NCBI GenBank assembly: GCA_003345555.1
Contig: PRDJ01000036.1
Coordinates: 19,809 to 83,808 of the forward strand
Direction: 5' to 3'
Length of the DNA: 64,000 bases
Source: Candidatus Thorarchaeota archaeon
GTDB taxonomy: Archaea > Asgardarchaeota > Thorarchaeia > Thorarchaeales > Thorarchaeaceae
Part shown: piece after piece, positions 24,888 to 38,538 of the stretch
How the letters are laid out: each line of letters opens with the position of its first letter
Numbering within the stretch: the stretch's first letter is position 1
Translations under genes and position numbers: made by a program
The notes under the pieces: model-generated
Told to the model about the DNA's origin: nothing
Database searches by the model: none
The model's input: the letters and a program-made list of their open reading frames with translations, nothing else

Positions 24888-26201
24888 GTGCCGGATCATA
24901 TGCCAAGCATTCCACCGCCCGCATCCAACTCAAGGGAGGGTTTTGCATTGTCTTCGGGCAAATCATTCCTTGGCCTTAGCAGAAGACTCTGGCGCTTGGC
25001 GATCGTTACCGGTATCGCTCAATTTGCTATCAGTCTGTGGAGTTGGCAGTTTGCCATTTTTCTTAGGAATTCGCTGCTCTTGGAACCTTGGCAGATGGGG
25101 CTCATATACTCTCTTGGAACTGTCGCGGCCCTAATTGGGTATCCGGCATCAGGGTTCATCGCAGATGTGATTGGCAGAAGGTTCACAATGGCTTTCTCAT
25201 TGGTACCGATGTTCGTCGGTCTGACACTGCTTTCCCAGATACCCACATGGCCGCTCATTGCTTTCTCATACGCCTTGACTCTTTTTGGATGGAGCTTCAT
25301 TCTGATCATTTCCAGAGCTATGCCCGCTGACGAAATAGCTGCAGCAGGTCAGTCCGATGCTCCGCGCAAGTTCATGATGGTCGTGATGCCAGCATACTTT
25401 GTTGATGGAATCTGCCCAATCATAGCGGCAACGCTGCTAAAGCAAGGGTACAATGCACAGTTTCTTTTCTTCCTTGGTTCAGTGGCGGCGATTATCGCTC
25501 TCGGGGCTACGCTGCTCGCCGTGCGGGAGACTCTCAGTTCGCAGAATCAAAGCAAAGCAAGGGCCAAAGTCCTCGCTTCTCCGAGAAGCCTTGGAGCTCA
25601 ATTCTGGAAATTCGCAGTCGGGATGCTAGCCTACTATGCAGTTTGGGGATTGGCGATATCATACTTGGGACCTCTCTGTGTTGATGAGTGGGGAGTAGAT
25701 GAGGTCACCTTCGGGTACACTTGGAGTGTCTGCTCGCTGTCGACAGCTGTAGCATCATATACCATCAGCGGCCTGACCGCGCGCAGTACGAGGCTCTGCC
25801 TTGTGCTCGCGCTCATCGGGAATTCGCTTATCGTGGGAGCCTTCAGCATCGGTTCAGGGATTATGATGATGGTATTGCTGAACGCACTCTGGGCGGTGCC
25901 GGTCGTCATGTGGATTGGTGCAGAAAGGACGCTCGTTGTCAGGGGCGTACGTCCAGAAATGAAAGGAAGAGCACTTGGTACATGGCAGCTAATGATGAGT
26001 TCGACTACCGTATTCGCGGCTCCCGCCGGAGCAATGATTTGGACGATCACAGGAACTATTCGATCTCTTTGGACAATCGCATCTGTTCTGGGATTTGTCT
26101 CAATCTTGTTTACAGCGATATCGTTGAGGTGGATGGGCGCCGGGGTAAAGGAAAGTAACGGTAATTCCGACGCTCCAACCGATGGCACGAGCGGCGAGTG
26201 A
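24888..26201 (+). CDS. MFS transporter
   Basis: 'GYPASGFIADVIGRRFTMAF' MFS signature and about 12 TM helices. Confidence 0.7.
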   Translation: MPDHMPSIPPPASNSREGFALSSGKSFLGLSRRLWRLAIVTGIAQFAISLWSWQFAIFLRNSLLLEPWQMGLIYSLGTVAALIGYPASGFIADVIGRRFTMAFSLVPMFVGLTLLSQIPTWPLIAFSYALTLFGWSFILIISRAMPADEIAAAGQSDAPRKFMMVVMPAYFVDGICPIIAATLLKQGYNAQFLFFLGSVAAIIALGATLLAVRETLSSQNQSKARAKVLASPRSLGAQFWKFAVGMLAYYAVWGLAISYLGPLCVDEWGVDEVTFGYTWSVCSLSTAVASYTISGLTARSTRLCLVLALIGNSLIVGAFSIGSGIMMMVLLNALWAVPVVMWIGAERTLVVRGVRPEMKGRALGTWQLMMSSTTVFAAPAGAMIWTITGTIRSLWTIASVLGFVSILFTAISLRWMGAGVKESNGNSDAPTDGTSGE

Positions 26202-28177
26202 GTTACTTATTAAGTGGAAGACCTACACTGAGAGTATGCCATAGGTGGCGGCGAGAAGTAGTGACAGAAAAGGGGTCCCCCATTAGCCGCAGGATAAGAC
26301 ACACAGGTGACCTGCTTCTTGGGGGAGCTCAGAAACAGGTAAGCGACTACAAGCAAAGGTTTGATTCTCTCCAGGGCTCTTACGATGCGTTTCTTTCACA
26401 CATGATTGAGTCCTACCCTGCAGATGCGGTCAGTGTCGCATTTGTTGACGAGTTCTTTGGCAAAAGAGAGCTTACGTTTGCAGGTGTAGACGGTACCGTC
26501 TGCAAGTACCCCGTCTTCGATCTCATCGTGTTCTTCGCTGGAGCCTATTCAGCTCACGGCACTGCTCATGTCAATCCTTCGGGAGCCATGAACATTGAAT
26601 GCGATGACTCTTGTCTGGAGACCGGACTCGGGGTGTCCAGTGTTCTGCCCGTGTACATTAACGATGTATTGAGTATTGACCGAACACTACTCGTTACAGA
26701 TGAAGATGGGTCAGTGGATGATTCTATTACGCTAAGTGATTCCTGGGTAATAGACAATTCTGCCTTCGCGGACTACATGATGAGCCTTGCAGAATTCTAT
26801 CTGGGCTACAAGCTCGTCGCGTCAGAGAAGCCCGTCGATATACTATTCCTGGACAGGATATGCTCGTCAGAGCTGTCATCGTTCTACTTCGAGACATCGG
26901 ATTCCAGAAACGATCTTGAAACACAATGCGGTCTCATTGGTGCGAAGGTTGACGGCAGACCATACACGCCCACGGACTGGGTCTACGCACGCCAAGTATT
27001 CGGCAATGCCTCGCTAGGAACACCCCCTGCGAGAGGGGAGTACTTGTTACCCAGAGTGGTCACCGAACTGCTGTCGGAGAAGGGATCAGGTCTCACACGA
27101 GACCAACTCACTGACCGCTTGGGGCTCACAACTGAATCGTCTAAGGCTCGTCTGGACCATGCCTTAGAGACCGGCATCGGAGGAAAGAGGTCGGCCCAGG
27201 GAATCCTAGTTAGAGAACATGACCATTTCGTCTTGAAACCGGGTGTGAGAGACCTAGGGAAACGCACTGAGCGTCTCGTGAATGACGTATGTGAAAGAAT
27301 GTTTAGTGAGGATTCATCAGTTACGTTTGAAGACCGTTTCAAGATCGGCAGCAAGTGGTTGACTACAACAGACCTCGCATTTCTAGGGCTGTGTTGTCTT
27401 CATCTGATTTCCGAGAAGTGCTGGAAGAACAGGTCCCTCCTGATAGGAGTAGCCAAGGACTCCTCGGCAAGAGACTTGAAGCGGCAACTCCTTCCCGTCC
27501 TGAACTATACGGGGCATTTCAAGGGCAACTTCGCCAACAGTGAGAACATCCCCGACACTGATAGGATGATTCTGCAGTGGGTCTCTCTTCAAGAACGCGA
27601 GAAGCTGAAGGTCCCTTGGGCGACATGCGAATATGATACCGCCTTCAAGACCACAGTCCCGCACTTTGGCGGAGCAAAGGGGTTGGTCTCCGGAGCCCGA
27701 CGCAATCAGATATCTCTCAACAAGACCTTTGCCAAAGCGTATTTCCAGCTATCGGAGGCAAAGTCTGATCCGAAGCTTCGAAGCAACGTGCTTCTCTACG
27801 ACAGGCTCGTCTACCCGGACTTTGATACGAACGAAGATCAGGTTCTCACTCTACTGCACGACTATATGGACAAGCCAGACGAACCTGAGCCCGTTGATGT
27901 TGTTCTCTATCTGGGGAAGGAGAACGCAGTTCAGTCATTCATCATCGCCTTATTCACAAAGATGACCGGCACGAGCATCCCCGAGCTCTTTGGTCACCTG
28001 AGACCGCTGTACATAGCCGACAAGATTGCGAAGTTTCATTACACACAGTTCTCGTCTATGGTAGAAAGCACAGGGTCTTGGTTAACGAACAGGCCTCAGC
28101 TGAGGGAATTCCTGTTCTATCTCAGCACCTTCAGAGAAAGGAGGTCGGAAGTTGAGCAAACAAGAAAGTATGGATGA
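26198..28177 (+). CDS. nurA: NurA-like nuclease, large form (659 aa) with an extra C-terminal region of about 250 aa
   Basis: 'TFAGVDGTVCKY' resembles NurA motif I (xxDGS/T catalytic Asp). GTG start overlaps the MFS stop (GTGA). An alternative ATG lies at about 26408. The 3' end overlaps herA by 26 nt. Confidence 0.5.
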   Translation: MSYLLSGRPTLRVCHRWRREVVTEKGSPISRRIRHTGDLLLGGAQKQVSDYKQRFDSLQGSYDAFLSHMIESYPADAVSVAFVDEFFGKRELTFAGVDGTVCKYPVFDLIVFFAGAYSAHGTAHVNPSGAMNIECDDSCLETGLGVSSVLPVYINDVLSIDRTLLVTDEDGSVDDSITLSDSWVIDNSAFADYMMSLAEFYLGYKLVASEKPVDILFLDRICSSELSSFYFETSDSRNDLETQCGLIGAKVDGRPYTPTDWVYARQVFGNASLGTPPARGEYLLPRVVTELLSEKGSGLTRDQLTDRLGLTTESSKARLDHALETGIGGKRSAQGILVREHDHFVLKPGVRDLGKRTERLVNDVCERMFSEDSSVTFEDRFKIGSKWLTTTDLAFLGLCCLHLISEKCWKNRSLLIGVAKDSSARDLKRQLLPVLNYTGHFKGNFANSENIPDTDRMILQWVSLQEREKLKVPWATCEYDTAFKTTVPHFGGAKGLVSGARRNQISLNKTFAKAYFQLSEAKSDPKLRSNVLLYDRLVYPDFDTNEDQVLTLLHDYMDKPDEPEPVDVVLYLGKENAVQSFIIALFTKMTGTSIPELFGHLRPLYIADKIAKFHYTQFSSMVESTGSWLTNRPQLREFLFYLSTFRERRSEVEQTRKYG

Positions 28178-30017
28178 ACTCTTCACGGACTTCGATGGAA
28201 CCTTCGACGGAGTTCTGGCCCGAGTAATTCCTGTCGCGGCCAACTACACTTCGGAATGGGCGGGCTCAGCGGCACGGTATGACTGTAGGGTGAAGGTTCG
28301 TTACAACAAGGAACTCATGGCGCAGCTCGAGGAAGGAATGATGCTCGCTGTCAAGAACTTCCGAGGCCAGTCAAAACTGTCGCTCCAGAAGGATCTCGAG
28401 AGATATACAGTCATGGTCGTCGCAAAGATATGGCCGCTTCATTATGGATTGGGGGGTGTTAGCGACAGTCACTACTTCCCACTTCAGATGGAAGTGATTG
28501 AACAGGCTCTTCCAGACTGGGATACTGATGACCAAGCCACAATGATGATTCACCTCGATGCAATACCCATCAACTACGATATGATCGTCGATTCATCAGA
28601 CAAGATTGAATTCAAGAAGGGATTCTCATACCCACTGGTTGGGGGCAAGGTTCACGTAATCAATATGGAAACCGTAGACCTGATCTACAACGGAAAGGTG
28701 AAGGATGCACTTGGGTTCAGGAAGAAAGCTAGCACAGCCGATCCCAGGAAGGACCCGAGGATTGGTCTCCTAAGGATGTTCATGGAATCGGGAAAGGAGA
28801 TACCCATCTATGTAGACCTGACGAAACTGGTTCGATACCACTTTGGCGTTTTCTCGTTCACTGGAGGAGGAAAGAGCAACCTATTGGCGAACCTTTTCCG
28901 CAGGATACTCTATCATCAGAAGGACACGAAGCTGGTCATATTCGATGTCAGCTGCGAGTATCCATTTCTCCTCTGTGATGTTTTCGCGGACCCCAGTATT
29001 CCTTCCAGAATCATATTGGAAGACGAAGCAACGACGGCCGATGATTTCGCCCGAACAATAGTGAAGCCTCGCGATTTCGAGGAAGACCCGAAAGCGAATG
29101 ATGCACTGAAGGCGATATTCGATAAAGGACGCGTCTCGTTCTACAATCTCCCTCTTGCCCAAGTGCCAACTTACGCAGACATCATGGATGAGATACAGGA
29201 CCTCAGGTCAGATAGTGCTGGTAAGCCAACCTACGTCCAAGCTATCGACCAAGTTGCAGCCATGGTACAAGGCTGGATGGAGTCGTGGAGCAAGAAGGAT
29301 GGAGACGAAGTTGACGAGAAGTTCATAGACGCGTATCAAGAAGCGGCAGAGGCTGCAATCACGGAGTTCTCAGTTAGTGAGAAGGCAAACCTTCATGCGT
29401 GGTCAAAAACCAGAGGTAAGCTGAAAGATGCCCTTCGCCGCGCCCGTGATGCACCCAAGAAAGGTATGACCGCTAAAGAAATCACTAACCTCATTCGTGG
29501 GAAAGAGAGAGTGGTCTGTCTGTCTATTGCCGACCCAGATACACTCAGAGACTTGGTCATCCGATTGACTGGGTCAGCTCTGAGGTATAGAAAGCGCAGC
29601 TTCGAGATAAAGCCCCAGATTCTATTCGTCTTTGACGAAGCCCAGGAGTTCATCCCTTCAAACGCAACAGGGCTGACAATCAATTGCAGTCGAGCGGTTG
29701 AGACATTGCTACGGCAGGGGCGCAAGTATGGTCTGGGTGGAGCCATCGCGACGCAAAGGATAGCCTATGTAAACACAAACATAATGCAGCAGCTTCATAC
29801 ATTCTTTGTCGGAACGCTGCCGAGACCTTATGACCGCACGGTCGTTAGCAGCTCGTTCCAGATAGACTTGAGTATCTTGGATAAAACTCTCGAGTTCCCA
29901 CCGGGCTCATGGCTGCTCTCGAGCTACATAGCCACTGGATTGGATAGTGTTCCAATCTTCGTAAGAGCGGACAACTCTGAAGATGTACTGAGGGAGCACA
30001 TTCAATCGCTCAAATGA
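28152..30017 (+). CDS. herA: HerA-like (DUF87/FtsK-HerA superfamily) ATPase, 621 aa
   Basis: Walker A 'HFGVFSFTGGGKSNLLANL'. Walker B 'ILFVFDEAQEFIP'. 'IATQRIAYV' (TQR motif). N-terminal beta-barrel-like region. Confidence 0.75.
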   Translation: MSKQESMDELFTDFDGTFDGVLARVIPVAANYTSEWAGSAARYDCRVKVRYNKELMAQLEEGMMLAVKNFRGQSKLSLQKDLERYTVMVVAKIWPLHYGLGGVSDSHYFPLQMEVIEQALPDWDTDDQATMMIHLDAIPINYDMIVDSSDKIEFKKGFSYPLVGGKVHVINMETVDLIYNGKVKDALGFRKKASTADPRKDPRIGLLRMFMESGKEIPIYVDLTKLVRYHFGVFSFTGGGKSNLLANLFRRILYHQKDTKLVIFDVSCEYPFLLCDVFADPSIPSRIILEDEATTADDFARTIVKPRDFEEDPKANDALKAIFDKGRVSFYNLPLAQVPTYADIMDEIQDLRSDSAGKPTYVQAIDQVAAMVQGWMESWSKKDGDEVDEKFIDAYQEAAEAAITEFSVSEKANLHAWSKTRGKLKDALRRARDAPKKGMTAKEITNLIRGKERVVCLSIADPDTLRDLVIRLTGSALRYRKRSFEIKPQILFVFDEAQEFIPSNATGLTINCSRAVETLLRQGRKYGLGGAIATQRIAYVNTNIMQQLHTFFVGTLPRPYDRTVVSSSFQIDLSILDKTLEFPPGSWLLSSYIATGLDSVPIFVRADNSEDVLREHIQSLK

Positions 30018-30058: not shown

Positions 30059-30757
30059 CTAGGCCGGTTCAAGCCGGATTGTCTGATTGCAGTTCTGGCA
30101 AACCACAGTACGGTCAGGTCTGATTTGATCTGAACGATAGAGGTACGCGGCCTTGCAGTGTGGGCACACGGTCCGTGTGACCCCTAGTATCTCTTTGAGC
30201 TCTCTTCGTTTCTCCTGAACCGTGGGTGGCAGCCGAAGAGGATGAGACTTGATGCGATTCCGACCGGCGCAGCACAATGCGCCAAAAGGAATCGAAATGA
30301 CACCTAGCACTGCAATTGCGAACTGCATTGTACCGAAACCGATTAGCAGGAGCACCAACCCAACGACGGTAAGGACGAAGCCACACGGAAAAGTGAACAT
30401 GAGATCGGAGAGCAGCGCGGACTTCCATTGTTCCATACATGCAGGGCAGAAGTATCGACTGGTCATTCTCGATTGGCCCAAGCTGTCGTCTTCCCACCGG
30501 ACGACGTAAAGACACTGCTCGCAGAAGGCCTTACCACATCGATTGCACAACCCTATTGATGGTACCCCGGGATGGTTAGGACATTGCTGATAGAGACCAC
30601 CCAGTTCTGATGGAACAAGAATCGTGCTACCACAGTATCTGCACCTAGCCTGAATCGTACCGGGCTCCAGTTCATAGCCGTGAGGAGCACCGCGGAAAGG
30701 GCAGACGAAAGCTTCTCTCTCTACACTGACCCCGCTAATGAGATGAGTAATAAACAT
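30059..30757 (-). CDS. Membrane protein with an N-terminal double zinc-ribbon/B-box-like module, 2 TM helices and a C-terminal zinc ribbon (paralog P1)
   Basis: 'EREAFVCPFRGAP...CRYCG...CPNHPGVPSIGLCNRCGKAFCEQCLY...CPAC', then TM, then 'VCPHCKAAYLYRSDQIRPDRTVVCQNCNQ'. The true start may be the GTG 12 codons in (VEREAF). Confidence 0.5.
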   Translation of the reverse strand: MFITHLISGVSVEREAFVCPFRGAPHGYELEPGTIQARCRYCGSTILVPSELGGLYQQCPNHPGVPSIGLCNRCGKAFCEQCLYVVRWEDDSLGQSRMTSRYFCPACMEQWKSALLSDLMFTFPCGFVLTVVGLVLLLIGFGTMQFAIAVLGVISIPFGALCCAGRNRIKSHPLRLPPTVQEKRRELKEILGVTRTVCPHCKAAYLYRSDQIRPDRTVVCQNCNQTIRLEPA

Positions 30758-30833
30758 CTTATCAGATTTGTGGACTTCGACAGGCTAATCCACCGAGATT
30801 GACCCAGCCCCTTTCTGTTTTCCGAGACACTCT

Positions 30834-31598
30834 CTAGCTTGACTTGATGCCTTCTCTGGCGGGCAACCCAAGATACTCACGGATGTTATAGTAATGCTCG
30901 CGCTCATGCTCCAAGTATCTTCTCATTACCTTGTACGCTGTCCACTGCTCGCTTGGATTGTTTGTATACTCTGCTCTCGTAAACATCGTGGCTCCCTTCT
31001 TCGGGACAACGTCTCTTAGACACATGACACAAGCTCTTCTTACAACCTCAAGCCGCTGAAAGACCGGCAGCTTGTCAACTTCAGACTCCGACGTGCCCTC
31101 GTACTTCTCATACTTCTGATCTGTTTCTGCTCCGAGTCTCGACAAATAGAACTCTTCGGCGTTGCACACGTGTTGCAGAATACCAGTGATGTCCCGCTTC
31201 TTTCCTTCGGGAATATTGCTCATTTGCTGAGGCGTCAGATCACTTACGAGGCCAAGTAAGTCCTGCCTGTTGTGCCCCATGAGACGTATGAAGTGGTCCA
31301 ACATCCGAGTTGTTACGGTCCTACGATCAAACTCGAACGTGGCGACTTCTCCACCTGATTCGCCTAGATTCACAACATCATGAATCTCCTCTGCCACGTT
31401 CATACTGAAAGCTTCTCGGATTCGAGACTGTTCGCCGTGCTTCCTGAGCCACGAATCATGGTACAAAAGCTCTTCGCGGAGAACCTCTAGCAGGGACTGC
31501 CTGTCCTGAGACCTAGCGTGGGTACCCGGAAGCTCAATGAACCGACCGTACCAGAGACCTGTATTGCCGCTTTCCAGCGCCAAAGAGAACACAGTCAT
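30834..31598 (-). CDS. DinB/YfiT-like (DinB_2) metal-dependent protein with an N-terminal HicB-like domain
   Basis: N-terminus 'MTVFSLALESGNTGLWYGRFIELPG' (HicB/UPF0150-like). C-terminus 'RYLEHEREHYYNIREYL' His-rich DinB motif. Confidence 0.4.
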   Translation of the reverse strand: MTVFSLALESGNTGLWYGRFIELPGTHARSQDRQSLLEVLREELLYHDSWLRKHGEQSRIREAFSMNVAEEIHDVVNLGESGGEVATFEFDRRTVTTRMLDHFIRLMGHNRQDLLGLVSDLTPQQMSNIPEGKKRDITGILQHVCNAEEFYLSRLGAETDQKYEKYEGTSESEVDKLPVFQRLEVVRRACVMCLRDVVPKKGATMFTRAEYTNNPSEQWTAYKVMRRYLEHEREHYYNIREYLGLPAREGIKSS

Positions 31599-31761
31599 TG
31601 CCTTTCCTGCCTAGTGAACAAGCGGAGTGGGAAAAGGCTTACGACGAAATTGGTCCCAATCATGTTACCGCACGCGAGTCTCTCAAATGATACTCTCTCT
31701 CATGCGTATCTTCACACATCCACAGACATCCTGGTACTGGTAGGATAGGTGTGACGCAGTG

Positions 31762-32274
31762 TCAGGGCAAGCCTTTCAGCCTGTCCCCGAGAGACGGCGC
31801 GTCTATCCGCGCCAACCTTAACGCAATCATCCCGAGGAAGACTACTACTGAAAGCAGAAGAGCGACATAGATCTCTGGATACTGTCCTCCACTCCGTACT
31901 GCAAAGTACAGAAAGACGGCAACGGGGACGGCAAACATCACAATGCCGCAGTCTTGTCTACTCCGGACCCGATGTGTTGTTCGCCTCAAGCAAGTAGGAC
32001 AGAGATACTTGCTTTGTCCAACATATCTGAATTCGTGGATACATTTGATGGAATAAGATTGACCACAATCGCGGCAAACCACCAATGCCGGAACATCATG
32101 ATGTACTGGGGACTGTCTGCTAGTAGTCTGAAAGGGAACGGTGACAAGGTTCCCACAGTGTTCGCATTTCGTCCTGACCGCATCTGCTGTCGGCGCATTA
32201 TTCAAAGGGCTCCCACAAAACGGACAGATGACTATATCCTTCTCCACGCTGTGCCCCATTACTTCATTGCGCAT
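31762..32274 (-). CDS. Zinc-ribbon/B-box-like membrane protein (paralog P2)
   Basis: 'ICPFCGSPL...CEHCG...CRDCGQSY...CPTC' followed by 2 TM helices. Confidence 0.5.
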   Translation of the reverse strand: MRNEVMGHSVEKDIVICPFCGSPLNNAPTADAVRTKCEHCGNLVTVPFQTTSRQSPVHHDVPALVVCRDCGQSYSIKCIHEFRYVGQSKYLCPTCLRRTTHRVRSRQDCGIVMFAVPVAVFLYFAVRSGGQYPEIYVALLLSVVVFLGMIALRLARIDAPSLGDRLKGLP

Positions 32275-32328
32275 TGGGCACTTATCAGTCTTCTGAGGAT
32301 AGGCTGCGGAAGCTGTTCAACACCTGAT

Positions 32329-33099
32329 TCATTCGAGGATTCGTCTGAAGAGGATGGTTGCTATTGTAGCGAATATCGCTGTGGCGAGAAGACCAGCGCC
32401 CAAGTCAAGAGGGATATTCGAAACATATCCCGGAAGTAACAGAGCTCTCATCGCATCTGTGATATAGCTCAGAGGATTGTACGCCGATATTATCTGGAGC
32501 CAACCGGGCATCTGGTTAATTGGATAGATTGCACTGCTGGTGAAGAAAAGAGGCATGGTTATCGCTTGGCCTATTCCCATCATCTTCTCTCGACTCTTGA
32601 ATATTGGAGCCAAGCACATGGACAAACACGAGAAGCACATCCCGGCAATCACTATGACCAAGGCAACTCCGATGAGATCTAGCGGATTCAGACTTAGCTG
32701 AACATTGATGATTAGGGCCAGAACGAAGACAACAATGGCCTGGAATATGCCTCTGACCCCGGCCGATATAGCCTTGCCCAAGACTATCGCTGACCGAGGG
32801 GCTGGCGTAGAAAGGAGCTTGTTTAGGAGCCCAAGGTCCCTCTCCCAGACGAGCATTATCCCATAAAAGACGGCAACGAACATCACGGACTGCGACAGCA
32901 CTCCCGGAGTAAGGAATTGGAGGTACGTGAACGACCCGACGTCGATAGCTCTTATGCTGGTTAGTGCGGTCCCGAAAACTAGCAGCCAGAGTGCTGGCTG
33001 AACTCCGCGTATGAATATTTCTGAAGAATCGTGCCTGAGCTTTCGGAGCTCGAATTCAGCCAGTGTGGACACAGTGCGCAAGAACTTTGATCCGATCAT
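32329..33099 (-). CDS. ABC-2 family transporter permease
   Basis: 6-TM ABC-2 layout. Start chosen at the internal Met, which forms an ATGA overlap with the ATPase stop. The longer track ORF 32329-33147 would overlap by 52 nt. Confidence 0.6.
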   Translation of the reverse strand: MIGSKFLRTVSTLAEFELRKLRHDSSEIFIRGVQPALWLLVFGTALTSIRAIDVGSFTYLQFLTPGVLSQSVMFVAVFYGIMLVWERDLGLLNKLLSTPAPRSAIVLGKAISAGVRGIFQAIVVFVLALIINVQLSLNPLDLIGVALVIVIAGMCFSCLSMCLAPIFKSREKMMGIGQAITMPLFFTSSAIYPINQMPGWLQIISAYNPLSYITDAMRALLLPGYVSNIPLDLGAGLLATAIFATIATILFRRILE

Positions 33100-34082
33100 C
33101 CTTTTCGCTTCCTCATCGCTAATCTCGTGACTCGCGCATCCCGCCACGTGCCACCATCCTGAATCCTAGCCCCTGCGTACTTCAGGAACACGTCATCCAG
33201 TGTAGACTTCTTGAGCGAGACAGATTCAACGTGTATCTTATGAGCCTCAAGAGATTCCAATACTGCAGGTATAGCCTTCTCGCCCTGAGCTACTACGAGC
33301 TCGTACGTACCCTCATCGGGTTTTGACACCAACAGCTGCCCATGCTCTCGCAGGATTAATGAACAATCTCCGTCGTGAGCAGTGATTGAAATCATGTCTC
33401 CTCCCATATCGTCCTTCAGTTGTGTTGGCGACCCATCTGCCACAATCTTCCCTTTGTTCATTATCGCAATCTCATCGCAGAGCACCTCGGCTTCATGCAT
33501 ATCGTGAGTGGTCACCAACATTGTAGTCCCGAATTCGTCCCGTAGGTGCATTATCTGGTTCCAGACCGCGGTCTTCGCGGATGGATCAAGGCCAATGCTC
33601 GGCTCGTCAAGAAATAGCATCCTGGGTCTGTTCATGAGTGCCTGGGCTATCTCAAGCCGCCGCATCATTCCTCCCGAATAGGTCTTTGCCAAATCGTGCT
33701 GACGGTCGGCCAGCTCCATGTATTCAAGAGCGTCCTGAATTCTTTGACCCCGCTGTTCTTTCGGCGTGTAATATAGCTTCGAATACATCAGCAGGTTCTC
33801 ATAGCCCGAGAGGTCCGTGTCTATCGAGACCTCCTGAGGCACATAACCCGAGATTTGTCGAACAGATGCCGCGGACTTCACACAGTCGATTCCAAAGACC
33901 TTGATAGTTCCAGAGGTGGGTCTGATAAGGGTGAGCGCGATTCGTATGGTTGTCGTCTTCCCGGCACCATTTGGACCAAGGAGACCGAATATCTGGCCCT
34001 CATCAACATCGAACGATATCGAATCGACCGCCTTGAAGTCTGAGTACATCTTTGTCAGATCCATTGCCTCGACCGCTTTCAT
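33096..34082 (-). CDS. ABC transporter ATP-binding protein (DrrA-like)
   Basis: 'GLLGPNGAGKTTTIRIA', 'LSGGMMRRLEIAQAL', 'LFLDEPSIGLD'. Confidence 0.8.
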   Translation of the reverse strand: MKAVEAMDLTKMYSDFKAVDSISFDVDEGQIFGLLGPNGAGKTTTIRIALTLIRPTSGTIKVFGIDCVKSAASVRQISGYVPQEVSIDTDLSGYENLLMYSKLYYTPKEQRGQRIQDALEYMELADRQHDLAKTYSGGMMRRLEIAQALMNRPRMLFLDEPSIGLDPSAKTAVWNQIMHLRDEFGTTMLVTTHDMHEAEVLCDEIAIMNKGKIVADGSPTQLKDDMGGDMISITAHDGDCSLILREHGQLLVSKPDEGTYELVVAQGEKAIPAVLESLEAHKIHVESVSLKKSTLDDVFLKYAGARIQDGGTWRDARVTRLAMRKRKG

Positions 34083-34248
34083 GTCGGACTTTCCTCCGCT
34101 TTTCGAGGGTCAACTCAGTTATCATCTTGAAATGCAGTCTCTCTTCATCAGACCGTTTCGGTCAAAAGCAAGGCGGCTCATCTGATAAGCTCTACCCTTT
34201 GGCCGCAGTCCTGTATGTTGTGGGTCTCGTACCAGTAAGCTCTCCGAA

Positions 34249-34758
34249 TCAAGTGTCGAGACTCCCACGATGCTCCTTTGCCTTGCTCGCAACTGTAGGC
34301 ATGTTGGTGATTCTGCGCCTTTGGATGATTCCTCCTGCCAAACAATACATGCCAAGGAATAGGGACATCAGCGTTAGTGCTGCAGAATCTCCACCACCTC
34401 GGACACCCGATAACCCGACCACTAGGAACAAGACAGAGAAGCAAATCAAGAAGTAGATGCCCGGTGTAGCCTCGATGGTTGCCAGCCCTGCGCATCTTGG
34501 ACATAGGTATTCCTTAGCCCCTCCTAGTCTTTGGAACACATAGAGACACCGACCACAGAATGCTTGACCGCATCTGGTGCAGAAACCTGTCGTCAGGGCG
34601 TCTGAGTGATTCGGACATCGTTGAGTCAGTCCGGTTAGGCGGCGCGGGACTACAATCATCCCGCCGCAGTACGAGCACTTTACCTGCGTTGCGCTTGATG
34701 GCAATTCACCCTTCTGAGGTGCGCCACAGAACGGACAGACGAATGCCTCTCTCTCCAT
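34249..34758 (-). CDS. Zinc-ribbon/B-box-like membrane protein (paralog P3)
   Basis: 'MEREAFVCPFCGAP...CSYCGG...CPNHSDALTTGFCTRCGQAFCGRCLY...CPRC' plus 2 TM helices. The N-terminus is nearly identical to P1. Confidence 0.5.
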   Translation of the reverse strand: MEREAFVCPFCGAPQKGELPSSATQVKCSYCGGMIVVPRRLTGLTQRCPNHSDALTTGFCTRCGQAFCGRCLYVFQRLGGAKEYLCPRCAGLATIEATPGIYFLICFSVLFLVVGLSGVRGGGDSAALTLMSLFLGMYCLAGGIIQRRRITNMPTVASKAKEHRGSLDT

Positions 34759-34886
34759 TTGAATGCCCGGGCTTTATGCTCTACTCAAGGGGATATCAGG
34801 TTTGTGAACATGAGAAGAGATAGTCCGCTCAAACAGGATAGGTTGCTCGATCTTCACCCTGTGCATCGTGCCATGATGTTTCATCA

Positions 34887-35057
34887 TCAGACTTGGTCGG
34901 GCTCGCCTAGCATGCTGATCCTTCGTCCGCAGTTCTGACAGGAGAAGATGCGGTCAGGTCCAACCTTGTCAGGACCATAGCGATAGCTTGCACCACAGTA
35001 AAGGCACTTGACATAAACAGAATCTGCGCTTGGGAGGAACCCGTTTGTCTCCTTCAT
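34887..35057 (-). CDS. Small zinc-ribbon ORF (56 aa), homologous to the C-terminal ribbon of P1
   Basis: Manual translation MKETNGFLPSADSVYVKCLYCGASYRYGPDKVGPDRIFSCQNCGRRISMLGEPDQV. ATGA overlap with the stop of 35054-35524. Below the ORF-track length cutoff. Confidence 0.4.
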   Translation of the reverse strand: MKETNGFLPSADSVYVKCLYCGASYRYGPDKVGPDRIFSCQNCGRRISMLGEPDQV

Positions 35058-35524
35058 AATCTGCCCGAGAAGGGGATGGTTAATTGGTCCGAAGACTGCC
35101 CAGAGCCCCTCAGTAGTAGGAACAGGCCGTACACTGTGACATCGGATGGGTAATAGGCCCGTCTAGGAGGAATGAAGAAGACAGCAATCATCACGGTGAC
35201 TACACCTATGATTATTCTAGTCATGCGAGCTCGGTTCTTTGTCCTTCCCGAGCACGCTTCGCAGACATAGTTGTCCCTGAGTCTTTGATATATGTAGAGA
35301 CAGTTTTCACAGAATCTCCGACCAGACACGTCGCATGCTCCCACTGAAAGCACATCTGGATGGTTTGAACACAACTCTCTGGTTTCCGTGATATCACTGG
35401 AGAGTAGAATTGGATACCCGCAGGAACGGCATCGTGTTTGAAATGCTCCTTCGGGAGGTGTATCAACTTGAAGCGTACGATAAGAACGACAGATGATAGC
35501 CCCCTTCCTCACAGCTGTTCCCAC
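35054..35524 (-). CDS. Zinc-ribbon/B-box-like membrane protein (paralog P4), with a partly degenerate cysteine pattern
   Basis: 'CRSCG...CSNHPDVLSVGACDVSGRRFCENCLY...CEAC' plus TM helices. The first CPxCG is lost (IICRSY). Confidence 0.45.
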   Translation of the reverse strand: MGTAVRKGAIICRSYRTLQVDTPPEGAFQTRCRSCGYPILLSSDITETRELCSNHPDVLSVGACDVSGRRFCENCLYIYQRLRDNYVCEACSGRTKNRARMTRIIIGVVTVMIAVFFIPPRRAYYPSDVTVYGLFLLLRGSGQSSDQLTIPFSGRL

Positions 35525-36120: not shown

Positions 36121-36665
36121 CGAGATGATCAAGATGGTCTACGTCATTAACGACGCTGGCGAGACGCTCGTTTCAATTCCGCTAGGCGACTTTCATGCCG
36201 ATGAAGCACTGTTTGGCGGATTCATGACTGCTATTGACATGTTCAGTCACAAGATGGCTGGAGACTCAATAAAGGAACTCATTCTCGGAAACAATCGAGT
36301 CGTCGTCGCTCGTGAAGGCGCCCATCTTCTTGTCACCGTGCATGATAAGGGGGATACCGACAGCCAAACCATCAATGCGAGAGCATGCGAGGCTTTCCGG
36401 AAACACTACGGCGGCGTTGTGACCGACGAAATGACAGATGCTATTCGCGAAGCTGTTCTCGGTACCATATCTATTCGGGGCAAGGCAGAAGATTGGGCTT
36501 CAAAGATGCTCTAGAAGGAAACGGAAATGGCGATAGAGGTATACGTTGCAGCGGAATTTCTTATGTTTGTGAGCTTGATAGCAGCTAGCTTTGCGATTGC
36601 GGGATACACTCGTCGTCGAATCAGGGAGCTGCCTGAAGAGGACAAGAAACTGGGCAAACCACTCT
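36121..36665. repeat. Segmental duplication, copy A (Roadblock gene plus 5' end of the membrane-protein gene)
   Basis: Nucleotide-level similarity to 38878-39420, starting at 'gatcaagatggtctacgt'. Confidence 0.6.
36125..36514 (+). CDS. Roadblock/LC7 (MglB-like) domain protein
   Basis: About 129 aa: 'MIKMVYVINDAGETLVSIPLGDFHADEALFGGFMTAIDMFS...LILGNNRVVVAREGAHLLVTVHDKG'. Start placed at the ATG where homology with the duplicate copy begins. Confidence 0.65.
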   Translation: MIKMVYVINDAGETLVSIPLGDFHADEALFGGFMTAIDMFSHKMAGDSIKELILGNNRVVVAREGAHLLVTVHDKGDTDSQTINARACEAFRKHYGGVVTDEMTDAIREAVLGTISIRGKAEDWASKML

Positions 36666-38005
36666 ACGCATACGCAGCTGGCACTTTCGTGATGGGCATA
36701 ACATCCTTTGCCAACTACCTAGCAGGCACGCAAGTTGTGATAGGGCCGTGGGCATGGCGCTTTTGGCCATCATACGCCTATGTCGTCTTAGCCATACTTG
36801 CCCCGGCGTTCATTTCGATAGCTGCGTTGATCGTCCTTGGGCGAGAGCATTTCATGATCCCGACCCTTTTTGCATTGGTGCTTGTTAGCTACGTTTGGAT
36901 ATTGCCAATGATACCAAACCCAATCGATGCTCGTGATGCGACTGCAGATGTGTCCTCCGTCATGTACATACCCGCAGTCCTGCTATTCGGGTACATATTG
37001 GCCAAAACGAGAAAAGCCACCAGTCTCGGGCTTTTCTACGTGGTCACATTCTATCCTCTCTATCGGTTGACTGTTATCGGACTGTCTGCCGGGCCGGTGG
37101 ATCTCAGCATCGTCTTTCTTGCCCTGCGGCTGCTGGCGCCAGTAATTGCCGCCGTCGCATTCCAAGTACGTGATATAGGAATATCATTCGAACTGGCGGG
37201 GTATGGGATGGCATACGCGCTTATTGCATTCTGGCTTTCGTATCTCATGATATCCCCTGTTACCGACCCTGTGCTGATTGCATCTCTCACTCTGATTGCT
37301 CTCGGATCGACAATCGGATTTGGTACGGGTGCATACACGTATGCCCGCTGGAAGAAGAACAGGCTCGGAGCAACATTCGTTCTATTCCTGTCGTTTACTT
37401 TCACAACATGGGCGTTCATACTGGTAGCCCTTCAGGGCCTAGGTCTTGCAACAGCAATCTACTACACCTATGCTTACATTTTCCTGACCTTCATTGCCCT
37501 CATGTGTTTCAATATGGCCGCGTATCTTGCTCTGGAATGGAGGTCGCTTCTCTTGTTGCCCGTCCTGATGATACTGCCGCTATTGTTCTTCTTGTCGATC
37601 CAATACCCTAGTGACCCACGCCTTAATCCGTTCTTCATCCCGGCCATCAGTATAACAGGTGTCGTTGCAGCGATTGTACCTGTTGCGTTGTATCTTTACC
37701 TGTGGCAAAGAATGAGGCAAGCAAAGGCGCCAGCCGCGAGCAGACCCCTGTTGTTGGCCACTGGAATCCTTGGATTGACTCTTGCTTTGGCTGCAGGCCC
37801 CATTACAATGGGTACAGAGGTTCTGAATGTGGCAAATCCAATCAGCGGAGTTCTCACATTCATCGCTTTTCTAGCATGGTGGTTGGCAGTTACTGGTAGG
37901 AACGAACGTTTCATGAAATGGTTGCACTCCACATTCCTGAAACCCAAGCCTGCTCCGTCCACGCCTCCGCCAGCGGGAGCTGCCTCTCAGCCCGGTGGTG
38001 CCTGA
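36527..38005 (+). CDS. Polytopic membrane protein (about 13 TM), unknown function. Lies between the Roadblock and GTPase genes.
   Basis: 492 aa, highly hydrophobic, Pro/Ala-rich C-terminal tail. The stop is 2 nt before the GTPase ATG. Confidence 0.55.
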   Translation: MAIEVYVAAEFLMFVSLIAASFAIAGYTRRRIRELPEEDKKLGKPLYAYAAGTFVMGITSFANYLAGTQVVIGPWAWRFWPSYAYVVLAILAPAFISIAALIVLGREHFMIPTLFALVLVSYVWILPMIPNPIDARDATADVSSVMYIPAVLLFGYILAKTRKATSLGLFYVVTFYPLYRLTVIGLSAGPVDLSIVFLALRLLAPVIAAVAFQVRDIGISFELAGYGMAYALIAFWLSYLMISPVTDPVLIASLTLIALGSTIGFGTGAYTYARWKKNRLGATFVLFLSFTFTTWAFILVALQGLGLATAIYYTYAYIFLTFIALMCFNMAAYLALEWRSLLLLPVLMILPLLFFLSIQYPSDPRLNPFFIPAISITGVVAAIVPVALYLYLWQRMRQAKAPAASRPLLLATGILGLTLALAAGPITMGTEVLNVANPISGVLTFIAFLAWWLAVTGRNERFMKWLHSTFLKPKPAPSTPPPAGAASQPGGA

Positions 38006-38007
38006 AG

Positions 38008-38538
38008 ATGTCTGCCAGAATCCCCGTATTCAAGACTGTTCTGATCGGGGAGGGAGGGGTGGGCAAGACCAGTATCACGCTGCGGTACACGGAGAATCGT
38101 TTCGAAGATAGTATGCGCATGACGGTTGGTGCTAACTTCGCTTCCAAGAAGGTGACTATTGGCAGCACACAGATGACCATCATGCTTTGGGATCTGGGAG
38201 GACAGCCCCGATTTCATGACGTGGTACAGGACTACTTCAAGGGAAGCAAGTTCGGAATCGCAGTCTATGACGTCAATCGACTCTACACTTTGGAGCGGCT
38301 TGAGGAATGGATTCATCGATTGAGAGAAGTTGCGCCGGACTGTGACCTCCTCATTGTCGGTAACAAAATAGACGAGCGAACCAATGACGGTGGAGTAGCC
38401 CTTGCCGAAGGGATTGCGTTCGCATCCAAGTTCGGCGCTGACTGCATTGAGGTTTCAGCTAAGACAGGTCAGGGAGTAAATGAGATTTTCGAGACGGCTG
38501 CAAGGCTTCTCATCAAGAAGTACATACAGAAGGTATAG
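38008..38538 (+). CDS. Rab/Ras-like small GTPase (176 aa)
   Basis: G1 'LIGEGGVGKTS'. Switch I 'RMTVGANF'. G3 'LWDLGGQPRF'. 'VYDVN'. G4 'GNKID'. G5 'SAKTGQGV'. Confidence 0.8.
   Translation: MSARIPVFKTVLIGEGGVGKTSITLRYTENRFEDSMRMTVGANFASKKVTIGSTQMTIMLWDLGGQPRFHDVVQDYFKGSKFGIAVYDVNRLYTLERLEEWIHRLREVAPDCDLLIVGNKIDERTNDGGVALAEGIAFASKFGADCIEVSAKTGQGVNEIFETAARLLIKKYIQKV

What the first reader, a model, noticed from the sequence alone, without database searches (positions are those of the whole stretch)
26198..30017. Stand-alone, translationally coupled NurA-like nuclease and HerA-like ATPase pair without Mre11/Rad50
HerA is called with confidence from Walker A GGGKSN, Walker B VFDEAQ and the TQR motif. 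NurA is tentative, supported by a GVDGT motif-I-like box and a length of about 660 aa, which is ~250 aa longer than canonical NurA. The two genes overlap by 26 nt. The pair sits between an MFS transporter, with a GTGA start/stop overlap, and a zinc-ribbon membrane-protein cluster. It is not in the herA-mre11-rad50-nurA arrangement typical of archaeal end-resection loci. HerA-family ATPases paired with nucleases or effectors recur in prokaryotic anti-phage systems. This could therefore be a defence or DNA-processing module, not the housekeeping resection complex. The long NurA C-terminal region has no recognisable motif.
Basis: partly seen in the sequence, partly recalled or inferred. Interest (0 to 1): 0.7.

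Follow-up and report, generated by a model that had tools for sequence, protein, structure and literature searches.

The report
Divergent stand-alone HerA–NurA nuclease operon
This is a real two-gene operon in a Thorarchaeota (Asgard archaeon) genome, encoding a DNA-pumping ATPase (HerA) and its nuclease partner (NurA, here twice the usual size with a built-in winged-helix domain); it looks like a conserved core DNA-end-processing machine, not an anti-virus module.

Summary

The extra ~300 aa are internal insertions, including a winged-helix domain at about residues 262-325, not a motif-less C-terminal tail.

The long-NurA→HerA pair is single-copy in at least 48 Thorarchaeota-type species. Most keep the same upstream synteny. 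It is as conserved as a neighbouring metabolic enzyme. It also occurs in Bathyarchaeia, Nitrososphaerota, Thermoprotei, Thermoplasmata and one cyanobacterium. It is never next to mre11/rad50.

No CRISPR array or defence gene lies nearby in the window. Only two distant relatives sit in defence-like contexts (CARF+SIR2; DndB).

Verdict: a divergent, mostly unannotated lineage of a known system, most likely housekeeping DNA-end processing. The defence reading is not supported for this locus but is not excluded. Whether Thorarchaeota also carry a canonical herA-nurA or mre11-rad50 elsewhere could not be tested.

The parts
26261..28177 (+). Long-form NurA nuclease gene (638 aa). The longest ORF starts at GTG 26198 (659 aa), but homologues support 26261.
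26489..26491 (+). NurA catalytic Asp D77 (GVDGT box, on strand beta1)
   Evidence: Invariant in 68 diverse family members. Aligns to P. furiosus NurA D51. Counterpart of Sso D58 (PMC3326311).
26792..26794 (+). Candidate catalytic Glu E178 (helix alpha1, 20 residues before D198)
   Evidence: Invariant. Position in helix 169-187. The E-to-D spacing of 20 compares with 17 in Sso (E116/D133). Assignment inferred, not superposed.
26852..26854 (+). NurA catalytic Asp D198 (LFLDR, at the end of beta4)
   Evidence: Invariant. Aligns to P. furiosus LMDG D126.
27044..27235 (+). Winged-helix (wHTH) domain inserted into the NurA fold (about aa 262-325)
27455..27457 (+). Invariant Lys K399 (GVAKD, end of beta5), probable counterpart of Sso NurA K202
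   Evidence: Invariant. Position at the end of a central-sheet strand. Role of K202 from PMC3326311. Inferred.
27992..28021 (+). C-terminal NurA motif G578-H579…A586-D587 (loop plus start of the last long helix)
   Evidence: Aligns to P. furiosus GGYLRPLQLAHH. H579 falls at the position of the conserved Tyr, and D587 at the position of the fourth metal ligand H411. G578 is invariant and D587 nearly invariant.
28140..28145 (+). GGAGGT Shine-Dalgarno-like box, 6 nt upstream of the HerA TTG start, inside the NurA 3' end
   Evidence: Read directly from the sequence. Function inferred.
28152..28177 (+). 26-nt NurA/HerA overlap (8 nt if HerA starts at ATG 28170)
   Evidence: The same 26-nt overlap is called in other Thorarchaeota. 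The N-termini of orthologues align from this start.
28152..30017 (+). HerA-family hexameric DNA translocase/ATPase gene (621 aa)
28863..28880 (+). HerA Walker A (GGGKSN, aa 238-243)
   Evidence: T237, G238, G240, K241, S242 and N243 are invariant in 10 partner HerAs.
29628..29645 (+). HerA Walker B (VFDEAQ, aa 493-498)
   Evidence: V493, D495, E496 and A497 are invariant.
29712..29759 (+). HerA conserved RQGRKY (aa 521-526) and TQR (aa 534-536) motifs. These are inferred, not tested, to be arginine-finger/sensor and DNA-translocation elements of HerA/FtsK ATPases.
   Evidence: R521, G523, R524, K525, T534, Q535 and R536 are invariant.

Best explanation
The locus is a bicistronic herA-nurA-type operon of a distinct 'long-NurA' lineage.

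Shown:
- ORF2 is a HerA/FtsK-class ATPase with intact Walker A/B and arginine motifs.
- ORF1 has the NurA RNase-H-like fold with the catalytic Asp/Glu/Asp set, the conserved Lys and a C-terminal GH…D motif.
- The NurA domain is interrupted by about 240-300 aa of insertions, including a winged-helix domain.
- The two genes overlap and co-evolve, and are adjacent in nearly every relative examined.

Inferred, by analogy with the S. solfataricus, T. kodakarensis and D. radiodurans complexes:
- A HerA hexamer uses ATP to thread duplex DNA through its ring into a NurA dimer docked on the HAS-barrel face.
- The strands are separated there and cut in a metal-dependent reaction.
- The inserted winged helix probably adds a DNA-contact or partner-contact surface that modulates substrate choice.

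Inferred role in Thorarchaeota: a core, vertically inherited DNA-end processing machine (double-strand-break resection or degradation feeding homologous recombination). It would work without genomic linkage to mre11-rad50. It is not a mobile defence module.
For: Identity of the two proteins:
- NurA fold.
- 27 of 68 family members hit Pfam NurA, with the 254-position model stretched over about 490 residues.
- The family profile aligns three P. furiosus NurA motifs.
- Invariant D77/E178/D198/K399 match the published catalytic and conserved residues.
- HerA.

Unit of selection:
- HerA lies directly downstream in every locus with downstream DNA and in Thermoplasmataceae, Nitrosocaldus, Crocosphaera, Nitrososphaeraceae and three further lineages.
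- NurA and HerA identities correlate at r = 0.95.

Core-gene behaviour:
- 56 loci, one per genome, covering about 48 Thorarchaeota-type species plus 7 Bathyarchaeia.
- The upstream S-layer-like/GDE/MFS block is syntenic in most Thorarchaeota.
- Median identity across Thorarchaeota is 62.5% for NurA and 70.5% for HerA. That compares with 69.8% for the glycogen-debranching enzyme and 45-48% for the MFS, lactamase and S-layer-like neighbours.

No defence context:
- No CRISPR array and no PADLOC hits in surrounding ORFs.
- The window holds metabolic genes.
- No relatives in viral contigs.

Naming elsewhere:
- Some Nitrososphaeraceae members are already named DSB-repair nuclease NurA.
- The Nitrosocaldus genome paper lists a HerA-NurA pair with Mre11/Rad50 as its HR set.
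Against: - The window NurA itself hits no Pfam, NCBIfam, PADLOC or PDB sequence model.
- The HerA is far below the NCBIfam 'DSB repair helicase HerA' equivalog cut-offs (42.9 against 970 bits). Orthology to the characterised repair enzymes is therefore not established.
- The HerA's best defence-library match is the CRISPR type III 'coevolved' HerA.
- Two distant relatives sit next to CARF+SIR2 or DndB genes.
- I could not determine whether Thorarchaeota also carry a canonical herA-nurA, or where mre11/rad50 lie.
- Active-site geometry was inferred from alignments and secondary-structure position, not from superposed coordinates.
- The usual Tyr and His positions are H579 and D587 here.
- No experiment exists for any member of this lineage.
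Confidence: 0.62

Rival explanations
1. The pair is an anti-mobile-element defence or CRISPR-accessory module. A HerA motor would feed foreign DNA to the NurA nuclease, with the winged helix or an unlinked sensor providing self/non-self discrimination. This would resemble the Cas-associated HerA/NurA pairs or the TdpAB phosphorothioate-dependent restriction complex.
For: - The HerA's best PADLOC model is PDLC01055 'HerA, Type III coevolved' (8.7e-41).
- The Thermoplasmataceae relative's HerA matches that model full-length (6e-78). Its long NurA is immediately preceded by a CARF6 protein and a SIR2+ATPase gene, with an HNH gene and a D12 methyltransferase nearby.
- The Crocosphaera relative is next to DndB and PIN genes.
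- Cas-linked HerA/NurA pairs are documented (PMC6546367 and PMC3973734).
- The family has a patchy inter-phylum distribution, including a cyanobacterium.
Against: - In Thorarchaeota the pair is single-copy, largely syntenic and as conserved as a metabolic enzyme across about 48 species.
- No cas gene, CARF gene, CRISPR array or other PADLOC-recognised gene lies in the 64-kb window.
- The CARF, SIR2 and DndB neighbours occur in one locus each among 70.
- Every other sampled lineage that keeps the pair has a housekeeping context.
- No long NurA hits any PADLOC model.
- No relatives are found on viral contigs.
Confidence: 0.2
2. The pair has another chromosomal DNA-translocation role, such as chromosome resolution or segregation, replication-fork processing or DNA uptake. 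Here HerA would be the main actor in the manner of FtsK, and NurA a trimming or regulatory partner.
For: - HerA belongs to the FtsK/HerA superfamily, and archaea lack FtsK; a cell-division role has been suggested (PMC12977600 discussion).
- There are weak hits to the Ced DNA-import ATPases CedD/CedB and to VirB4/TrwB folds.
- The pair is unlinked to mre11/rad50 everywhere.
- The pair behaves as a core gene.
Against: - The obligatory pairing with a catalytically intact nuclease fits end processing better.
- No membrane, pilus or Ced components are adjacent.
- The Ced and conjugation matches are marginal (14-25 bits).
Confidence: 0.1
3. ORF1 is a degenerate, catalytically dead NurA-fold scaffold, so the pair is not a nuclease.
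For: - There is no direct sequence-model hit.
- The usual Tyr and His positions are replaced by H579 and D587.
- The domain carries large insertions.
Against: - D77, E178, D198 and K399 are invariant across 68 sequences down to about 20% identity.
- Asp is a standard fourth ligand in RNase-H-like DEDD nucleases (general knowledge).
- The active-site strands are strongly conserved.
Confidence: 0.03

Closest known systems
Archaeal HerA-NurA end-resection complex (S. solfataricus 2YGK/4D2I; T. kodakarensis 9X1L; P. furiosus NurA 3TAI)
   Same: - The catalytic Asp/Glu/Asp and conserved Lys are conserved.
- An N-terminal long helix is present, of the kind used for dimerisation.
- The HerA has a HAS-barrel-like N-terminus, a RecA core and a helical insert.
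- The genes are adjacent and co-oriented.
   Different: - The NurA is about 300 aa longer than Sso NurA. It has three internal insertions, including a winged-helix domain.
- The conserved Tyr is replaced by His, and the P. furiosus metal-ligand His by Asp.
- No sequence model recognises it directly.
- The HerA scores only about 42 bits against the repair-HerA equivalogs.
- The gene order is nurA then herA as a stand-alone pair, never linked to mre11-rad50.
- The hosts are mostly mesophilic lineages.
Bacterial stand-alone NurA-HerA (Deinococcus radiodurans 7F6D; Thermus)
   Same: - It is a two-gene nurA-herA module without adjacent mre11/rad50.
- It is proposed as a minimal end-resection machine (PMC12977600, PMC9960219).
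   Different: - It is structurally more distant than Sso NurA.
- The bacterial NurA is short (about 330 aa) with no winged-helix insert.
- It uses a different dimerisation mode (PMC9960219).
CRISPR type III/I-associated 'Cas HerA / Cas NurA' pairs (Shah et al. 2018 clusters 57/58; Vestergaard et al. 2014)
   Same: - The HerA's best defence-library match is this model.
- These are likewise always-paired HerA and NurA genes.
- One distant long-NurA relative is CARF-adjacent.
   Different: - No cas, CARF or CRISPR array lies in the window or in any Thorarchaeota or Bathyarchaeia locus examined.
- The window HerA match is partial (138 bits in two stretches, against 261 bits full-length for the CARF-linked relative).
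- The long NurA hits no PADLOC model.
TdpAB (HerA-like TdpA plus NurA-like TdpB, phosphorothioate-dependent restriction; PDB 8WET) and SIR2-HerA/Nezha and DUF4297-HerA systems
   Same: - The architecture is the same: a HerA hexamer coupled to an effector.
   Different: - The effector here is a bona fide NurA much closer to repair NurA.
- No modification gene or defence island is present.
- NCBIfam anti-phage HerA equivalog cut-offs are missed by a wide margin (41.8 against 800 bits).

Membership tests
NurA nuclease (Pfam PF09376) | RNase-H-like NurA fold | tested here: met
   [not shown]
NurA nuclease (Pfam PF09376) | Catalytic Asp (beta1), Glu (alpha1) and Asp (beta4), i.e. Sso D58/E116/D133 | tested here: met
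   D77, E178 and D198 are invariant in 68 sequences. D77 and D198 align to Pfu D51 and D126. E178 is assigned by helix position and spacing, not by superposition.
NurA nuclease (Pfam PF09376) | Conserved Lys and Tyr near the active site (Sso K202, Y298), and the C-terminal metal ligand (Pfu H411) | tested here: inconclusive
   K399 is invariant at the end of a central strand. The Tyr position is H579 and the His position is D587. These substitutions are chemically plausible but untested.
NurA nuclease (Pfam PF09376) | Direct match of this protein to the Pfam NurA model | tested here: not met
   No hit at E <= 1. There is also nothing in NCBIfam, PADLOC or PDB sequences.
NurA nuclease (Pfam PF09376) | Transitive sequence link to the family | tested here: met
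   27 of 68 full-length relatives hit PF09376 (best 2.8e-11). For example, P0312 scores 33.6 bits against a cut-off of 21, spanning model positions 3-253. The family profile hits Pfu NurA at E = 0.0075.
NurA nuclease (Pfam PF09376) | Adjacent, co-oriented herA gene | tested here: met
   There is a 26-nt overlap in the window. Adjacency holds in all loci with downstream DNA, with one exception, L067.
NurA nuclease (Pfam PF09376) | Toroidal homodimer, HerA binding and Mn-dependent 5'-3' nuclease activity | not testable with these tools
   Needs multimer modelling and biochemistry.
HerA helicase/translocase (Pfam PF01935 DUF87; FtsK-HerA superfamily) | HerA central domain with Walker A, Walker B and arginine motifs | tested here: met
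   PF01935 scores 56.7 bits against a cut-off of 23.2. The motifs are invariant across 10 partner HerAs. PDB HerA sequence hits reach 2.5e-12.
HerA helicase/translocase (Pfam PF01935 DUF87; FtsK-HerA superfamily) | N-terminal HAS-barrel plus a helical-bundle insert in the RecA core | tested here: met
   [not shown]
HerA helicase/translocase (Pfam PF01935 DUF87; FtsK-HerA superfamily) | NCBIfam equivalog 'DNA double-strand break repair helicase HerA' | tested here: not met
   NF040819 scores 42.9 bits against a cut-off of 970. NF040937 scores 41.9 against 800.
Canonical archaeal herA-mre11-rad50-nurA resection operon | Physical linkage to mre11 and rad50 | tested here: not met
   There are none among the window ORFs. 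There are none within +/-10 kb in 67 related loci, including the complete chromosome CP070761.1, though this was only a regex screen of limited sensitivity. Pfam annotations of neighbours show none.
CRISPR-associated HerA/NurA (type III 'coevolved') | HerA matches the Cas-HerA model | tested here: inconclusive
   PDLC01055 scores 138 bits in two stretches. It is the best PADLOC hit but partial, whereas the CARF-linked relative scores 261 bits full-length.
CRISPR-associated HerA/NurA (type III 'coevolved') | Location within or next to cas gene cassettes, CARF genes or CRISPR arrays | tested here: not met
   There is no spaced-repeat array in 64 kb, and no PADLOC hit in neighbouring or unknown ORFs. 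The CARF gene is found only in L007 among 70 loci.
Anti-phage HerA systems (SIR2-HerA/Nezha, DUF4297-HerA, TdpAB) | Partner effector is SIR2, DUF4297 or TdpB, and the HerA passes the anti-phage HerA equivalogs | tested here: not met
   The partner is NurA-fold, closest to repair NurA. NF042943 and NF042944 score 41.8 and 41.2 bits against cut-offs of 800 and 850.
Anti-phage HerA systems (SIR2-HerA/Nezha, DUF4297-HerA, TdpAB) | Variable, island-like genomic distribution | tested here: not met
   There is one copy per genome, a largely syntenic locus and high conservation in Thorarchaeota.

The most novel reading that the evidence does not exclude
The long-NurA/HerA lineage may be an ancient, self-contained nuclease-translocase module whose inserted winged helix acts as a built-in DNA sensor, for example of DNA ends, modification state or unusual structure. 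The same module would then have been used repeatedly both as a core genome-maintenance machine (Thorarchaeota, Bathyarchaeia, Nitrososphaerota) and as an effector of cOA/CARF-linked or Dnd-linked immunity (Thermoplasmataceae, cyanobacteria). In Thorarchaeota it could replace the canonical HerA-NurA altogether, or act as a constitutive surveillance nuclease against foreign DNA.
Probability: 0.15. Interest if true: 0.65.

Novelty: new variant of a known kind. Interest (0 to 1): 0.36.

Why it matters
- **Annotation.** In Thorarchaeota and Bathyarchaeia this NurA is named 'hypothetical protein' and its HerA only 'ATP-binding protein' or 'HerA-like ATPase'. [quoted passage not shown]
- **NurA architecture.** The NurA fold tolerates a domain-sized winged-helix insertion. 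That gives a concrete handle for asking how substrate choice is controlled in HerA-NurA machines.
- **Repair and immunity.** The same lineage occurs in core chromosomal contexts and, rarely, beside CARF/SIR2 or Dnd genes. It is therefore a useful case for studying exchange between repair and immunity.

It is not, on present evidence, a new kind of system.

Tried and rejected
1. Direct sequence searches of ORF1 against Pfam, PADLOC, NCBIfam and PDB sequences gave nothing except a spurious DUF3051 hit (14.6 bits against a cut-off of 27).
2. The search for related loci with the diverse alignments A2 and A3 failed because no stretch was conserved enough. Only the Thorarchaeota alignment worked, so the genome-wide sampling is biased towards Thorarchaeota and Bathyarchaeia.
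3. The AFDB50 fold library was unavailable.
4. A viral-contig scan found no relatives.
5. Literature searches on HerA/NurA in Asgard archaea found nothing specific. The published asCOG paper is not held.
6. A regex screen for Mre11/SbcD-like and Rad50/SMC-like ORFs in the window and 1.05 Mb of loci found none. Its sensitivity is limited.
7. A CRISPR-like spaced-repeat search found only a coding-sequence repeat at 56796-56856.
9. I considered whether the MFS gene or the zinc-ribbon genes belong to the module. I rejected this because they are absent or variable next to the pair outside close relatives.
10. I could not scan a whole Thorarchaeota genome for a second herA-nurA or for mre11-rad50.


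Full report
**Observation**

The window carries two same-strand ORFs at 26198-28177 and 28152-30017. An identical protein (P0001, 638 aa) is deposited as a hypothetical protein of a Candidatus Thorarchaeota MAG, so the window is from an Asgard archaeon.

Homologues are about 638-640 aa, and gene callers on identical contigs start ORF1 at GTG 26261. The 659-aa reading, and the 'GTGA' overlap with the upstream MFS gene, are therefore probably longest-ORF artefacts.

For ORF2, TTG 28152 is preceded by GGAGGT at a 6-nt spacing. Orthologue N-termini align from that start, and other Thorarchaeota are called with the same 26-nt overlap. Callers on identical contigs chose ATG 28170 instead, which gives an 8-nt overlap. 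Either way the genes overlap.

**HerA**

- ORF2 passes Pfam DUF87/HerA (56.7 bits against a cut-off of 23.2).
- It hits 12 PADLOC HerA models, best PDLC01055 'Type III coevolved' at 8.7e-41.
- It hits solved HerA structures by sequence.
- Walker A (GGGKSN, aa 238-243), Walker B (VFDEAQ, 493-498), RQGRKY and TQR are present. They are invariant in partner HerAs from six lineages.
- An AF2 model (pLDDT 71.9) shows an N-terminal beta-barrel, a RecA core and a helical insert.
- It is far below the NCBIfam equivalog cut-offs for both repair HerA and anti-phage HerA.

**NurA**

ORF1 has no hit in Pfam, PADLOC, NCBIfam or PDB sequences.

An exhaustive representative search found 281 family clusters, many full-length at 23-41% identity. 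Of 68 such proteins, 27 hit Pfam NurA. In those that pass threshold, the 254-position model is stretched over about 490 residues, which shows an interrupted domain.

The family profile hits P. furiosus NurA at E = 0.0075, aligning three motifs:
- AVDGS (Pfu D51) with the window's D77.
- LMDG (Pfu D126) with D198.
- GGYLRPLQLAHH with GHLRPLYIAD. This places H579 at the conserved Tyr position and D587 at the Pfu H411 position.

D77, E178, D198 and K399 are invariant across the 68 sequences. They correspond to the published Sso D58, E116, D133 and K202 (PMC3326311).

Relative to Sso NurA, the inter-motif distances are longer by about 43 aa (D77 to E178), 130 aa (D198 to K399) and 85 aa (K399 to H579). 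The excess length is therefore internal, not a C-terminal tail.

The middle insertion contains a winged-helix domain at about aa 262-325:
- The model shows three helices plus a hairpin.
- There are weak profile and Pfam wHTH hits.
- It is present in 88% of family members but is the least conserved region.

**Distribution and context**

A scan of GTDB species genomes returned 56 loci, one per genome. About 48 are Thorarchaeota-type species, including the complete chromosome CP070761.1, and 7 are Bathyarchaeia at about 40% identity.

HerA follows directly in every locus that has downstream DNA. The upstream S-layer-like/(lactamase)/GDE/MFS block is syntenic in most Thorarchaeota. The downstream genes vary.

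| Gene | Median identity to the window across Thorarchaeota |
|---|---|
| NurA | 62.5% |
| HerA | 70.5% |
| Glycogen-debranching enzyme (GDE) | 69.8% |
| MFS, lactamase and S-layer-like neighbours | 45-48% |

NurA and HerA identities correlate at r = 0.95.

Named relatives include Thermoplasmataceae, Nitrosocaldus, Nitrososphaeraceae (one named 'DNA double-strand break repair nuclease NurA'), Thermoprotei, Bathyarchaeia and Crocosphaera ('NurA domain-containing protein').

The neighbourhoods of distant members fall into three groups:
- **Ordinary chromosomal genes:** Nitrosocaldus, Nitrososphaeraceae and three further lineages.
- **Defence-like:** the Thermoplasmataceae pair follows a SIR2+ATPase gene and a CARF6 gene, with an HNH gene and a D12 methyltransferase nearby. 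Its HerA matches the 'Type III coevolved' model full-length at 6e-78. The Crocosphaera pair is next to DndB and PIN.
- **No adjacent HerA:** one relative (L067) lies near Hef/XPF and HhH-GPD genes.

No Mre11/Rad50-like ORF occurs in the window or within 10 kb of any related locus. The window has no CRISPR-like array and no PADLOC hits among its other ORFs. The CARF, SIR2 and DndB neighbours do not recur elsewhere. No relatives were found in viral contigs.

**Interpretation**

Identity as a HerA-NurA helicase-nuclease pair is well supported.

By analogy with solved complexes (PMC3326311, PMC9960219, PMC12977600), a HerA hexamer should thread duplex DNA into a NurA dimer for metal-dependent cleavage. 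The winged helix is an added DNA-contact or partner-contact module of unknown effect.

The evolutionary behaviour in Thorarchaeota (single copy, synteny, conservation equal to a metabolic enzyme) is that of a core gene. This favours a housekeeping DNA-end-processing role. Mre11-Rad50, which are generally conserved in archaea (PMC12993045), would be encoded elsewhere.

Stand-alone nurA-herA pairs are already known in Deinococcus and Thermus. The Nitrosocaldus genome paper lists a HerA-NurA pair with Mre11/Rad50 as that organism's HR set.

The defence reading is not supported for this locus, but it cannot be dismissed for the lineage. Cas-linked HerA/NurA pairs are documented, this HerA lineage is nearest to that model, and two distant members are in defence-like settings.

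**Limits**

- I could not examine a whole Thorarchaeota genome for a second herA-nurA or for mre11-rad50.
- The E178, K399, H579 and D587 assignments rest on alignments and secondary-structure position, not on superposed coordinates.
- No member of this lineage has been studied experimentally.

**Verdict**

This is a real, divergent and mostly unannotated variant of a known system. It is interesting mainly for annotation of Asgard and TACK DNA repair and for the winged-helix-inserted NurA architecture. Interest is moderate to low (0.36).

Noticed in passing
window 30059-35524 (- strand): There are four paralogous small proteins with N-terminal double zinc-ribbon motifs and C-terminal transmembrane helices: 30059-30757, 31762-32274, 34249-34758 and 35054-35524. 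They are interleaved with a DinB_2 gene (30834-31598) and an ABC-2 transporter (32329-34082). The two tested have no PADLOC hit, and Pfam records none for any of the four. The cluster occurs only in the closest relatives, not beside NurA-HerA in other Thorarchaeota.
   Followed up: partly
L007:4475-12954 (Thermoplasmataceae, JBTSPO010000017.1): The gene order is SIR2+ATPase (836 aa), CARF6 protein (331 aa), long NurA, HerA (full-length match to 'Type III coevolved' HerA) and a DUF6884/DpdA-like protein. HNH and D12 methyltransferase genes lie nearby. This is a candidate cyclic-oligoadenylate-linked defence island built around the same NurA-HerA lineage.
   Followed up: partly
L009:569-5062 (Crocosphaera chwakensis AAXW01000120.1): A DndB homologue (1e-39) and a PIN gene lie immediately upstream of a long NurA-HerA pair in a cyanobacterium. 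This is reminiscent of phosphorothioate-linked HerA/NurA-like restriction (TdpAB).
   Followed up: no
L067:1826-11908: This is the only long NurA found without an adjacent HerA. It lies 6-8 kb from a Hef/XPF-type helicase-nuclease and an HhH-GPD glycosylase.
   Followed up: no
L044:9974-13781 (CAVSBO010000003.1, 89% identity to the window): Both the NurA and HerA reading frames are split into two pieces each. These are either frameshift errors of the assembly or pseudogenisation in the closest species-level relative.
   Followed up: no
window 27458-27460, 27560-27562, 27635-27637, 27803-27805 (NurA D400, D434, D459, R515): These residues, together with R625 and R628, are invariant across the whole long-NurA family down to about 20% identity. 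They have no described counterpart in canonical NurA, and their role (second metal site, DNA path or HerA interface) is unexplained.
   Followed up: no
window 26203-26214: An A/T-rich box (TTACTTATTAAG) lies about 47-58 nt upstream of the GTG 26261 start, in the MFS-NurA spacer. It could be an archaeal TATA element giving the pair its own promoter. This was not tested.
   Followed up: no
window 36527-38538: A 492-aa polytopic membrane protein is followed by a small Arf/Ras/Roc-family GTPase gene, an Asgard 'eukaryotic signature' type gene. It is unrelated to the finding.
   Followed up: no
window 56796-56856: A 28-nt imperfect direct repeat, 33 nt apart, lies at the 5' end of the AMP-binding enzyme gene. 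It encodes a short repeated Pro/Ala/Lys-rich peptide and is not a CRISPR array.
   Followed up: no
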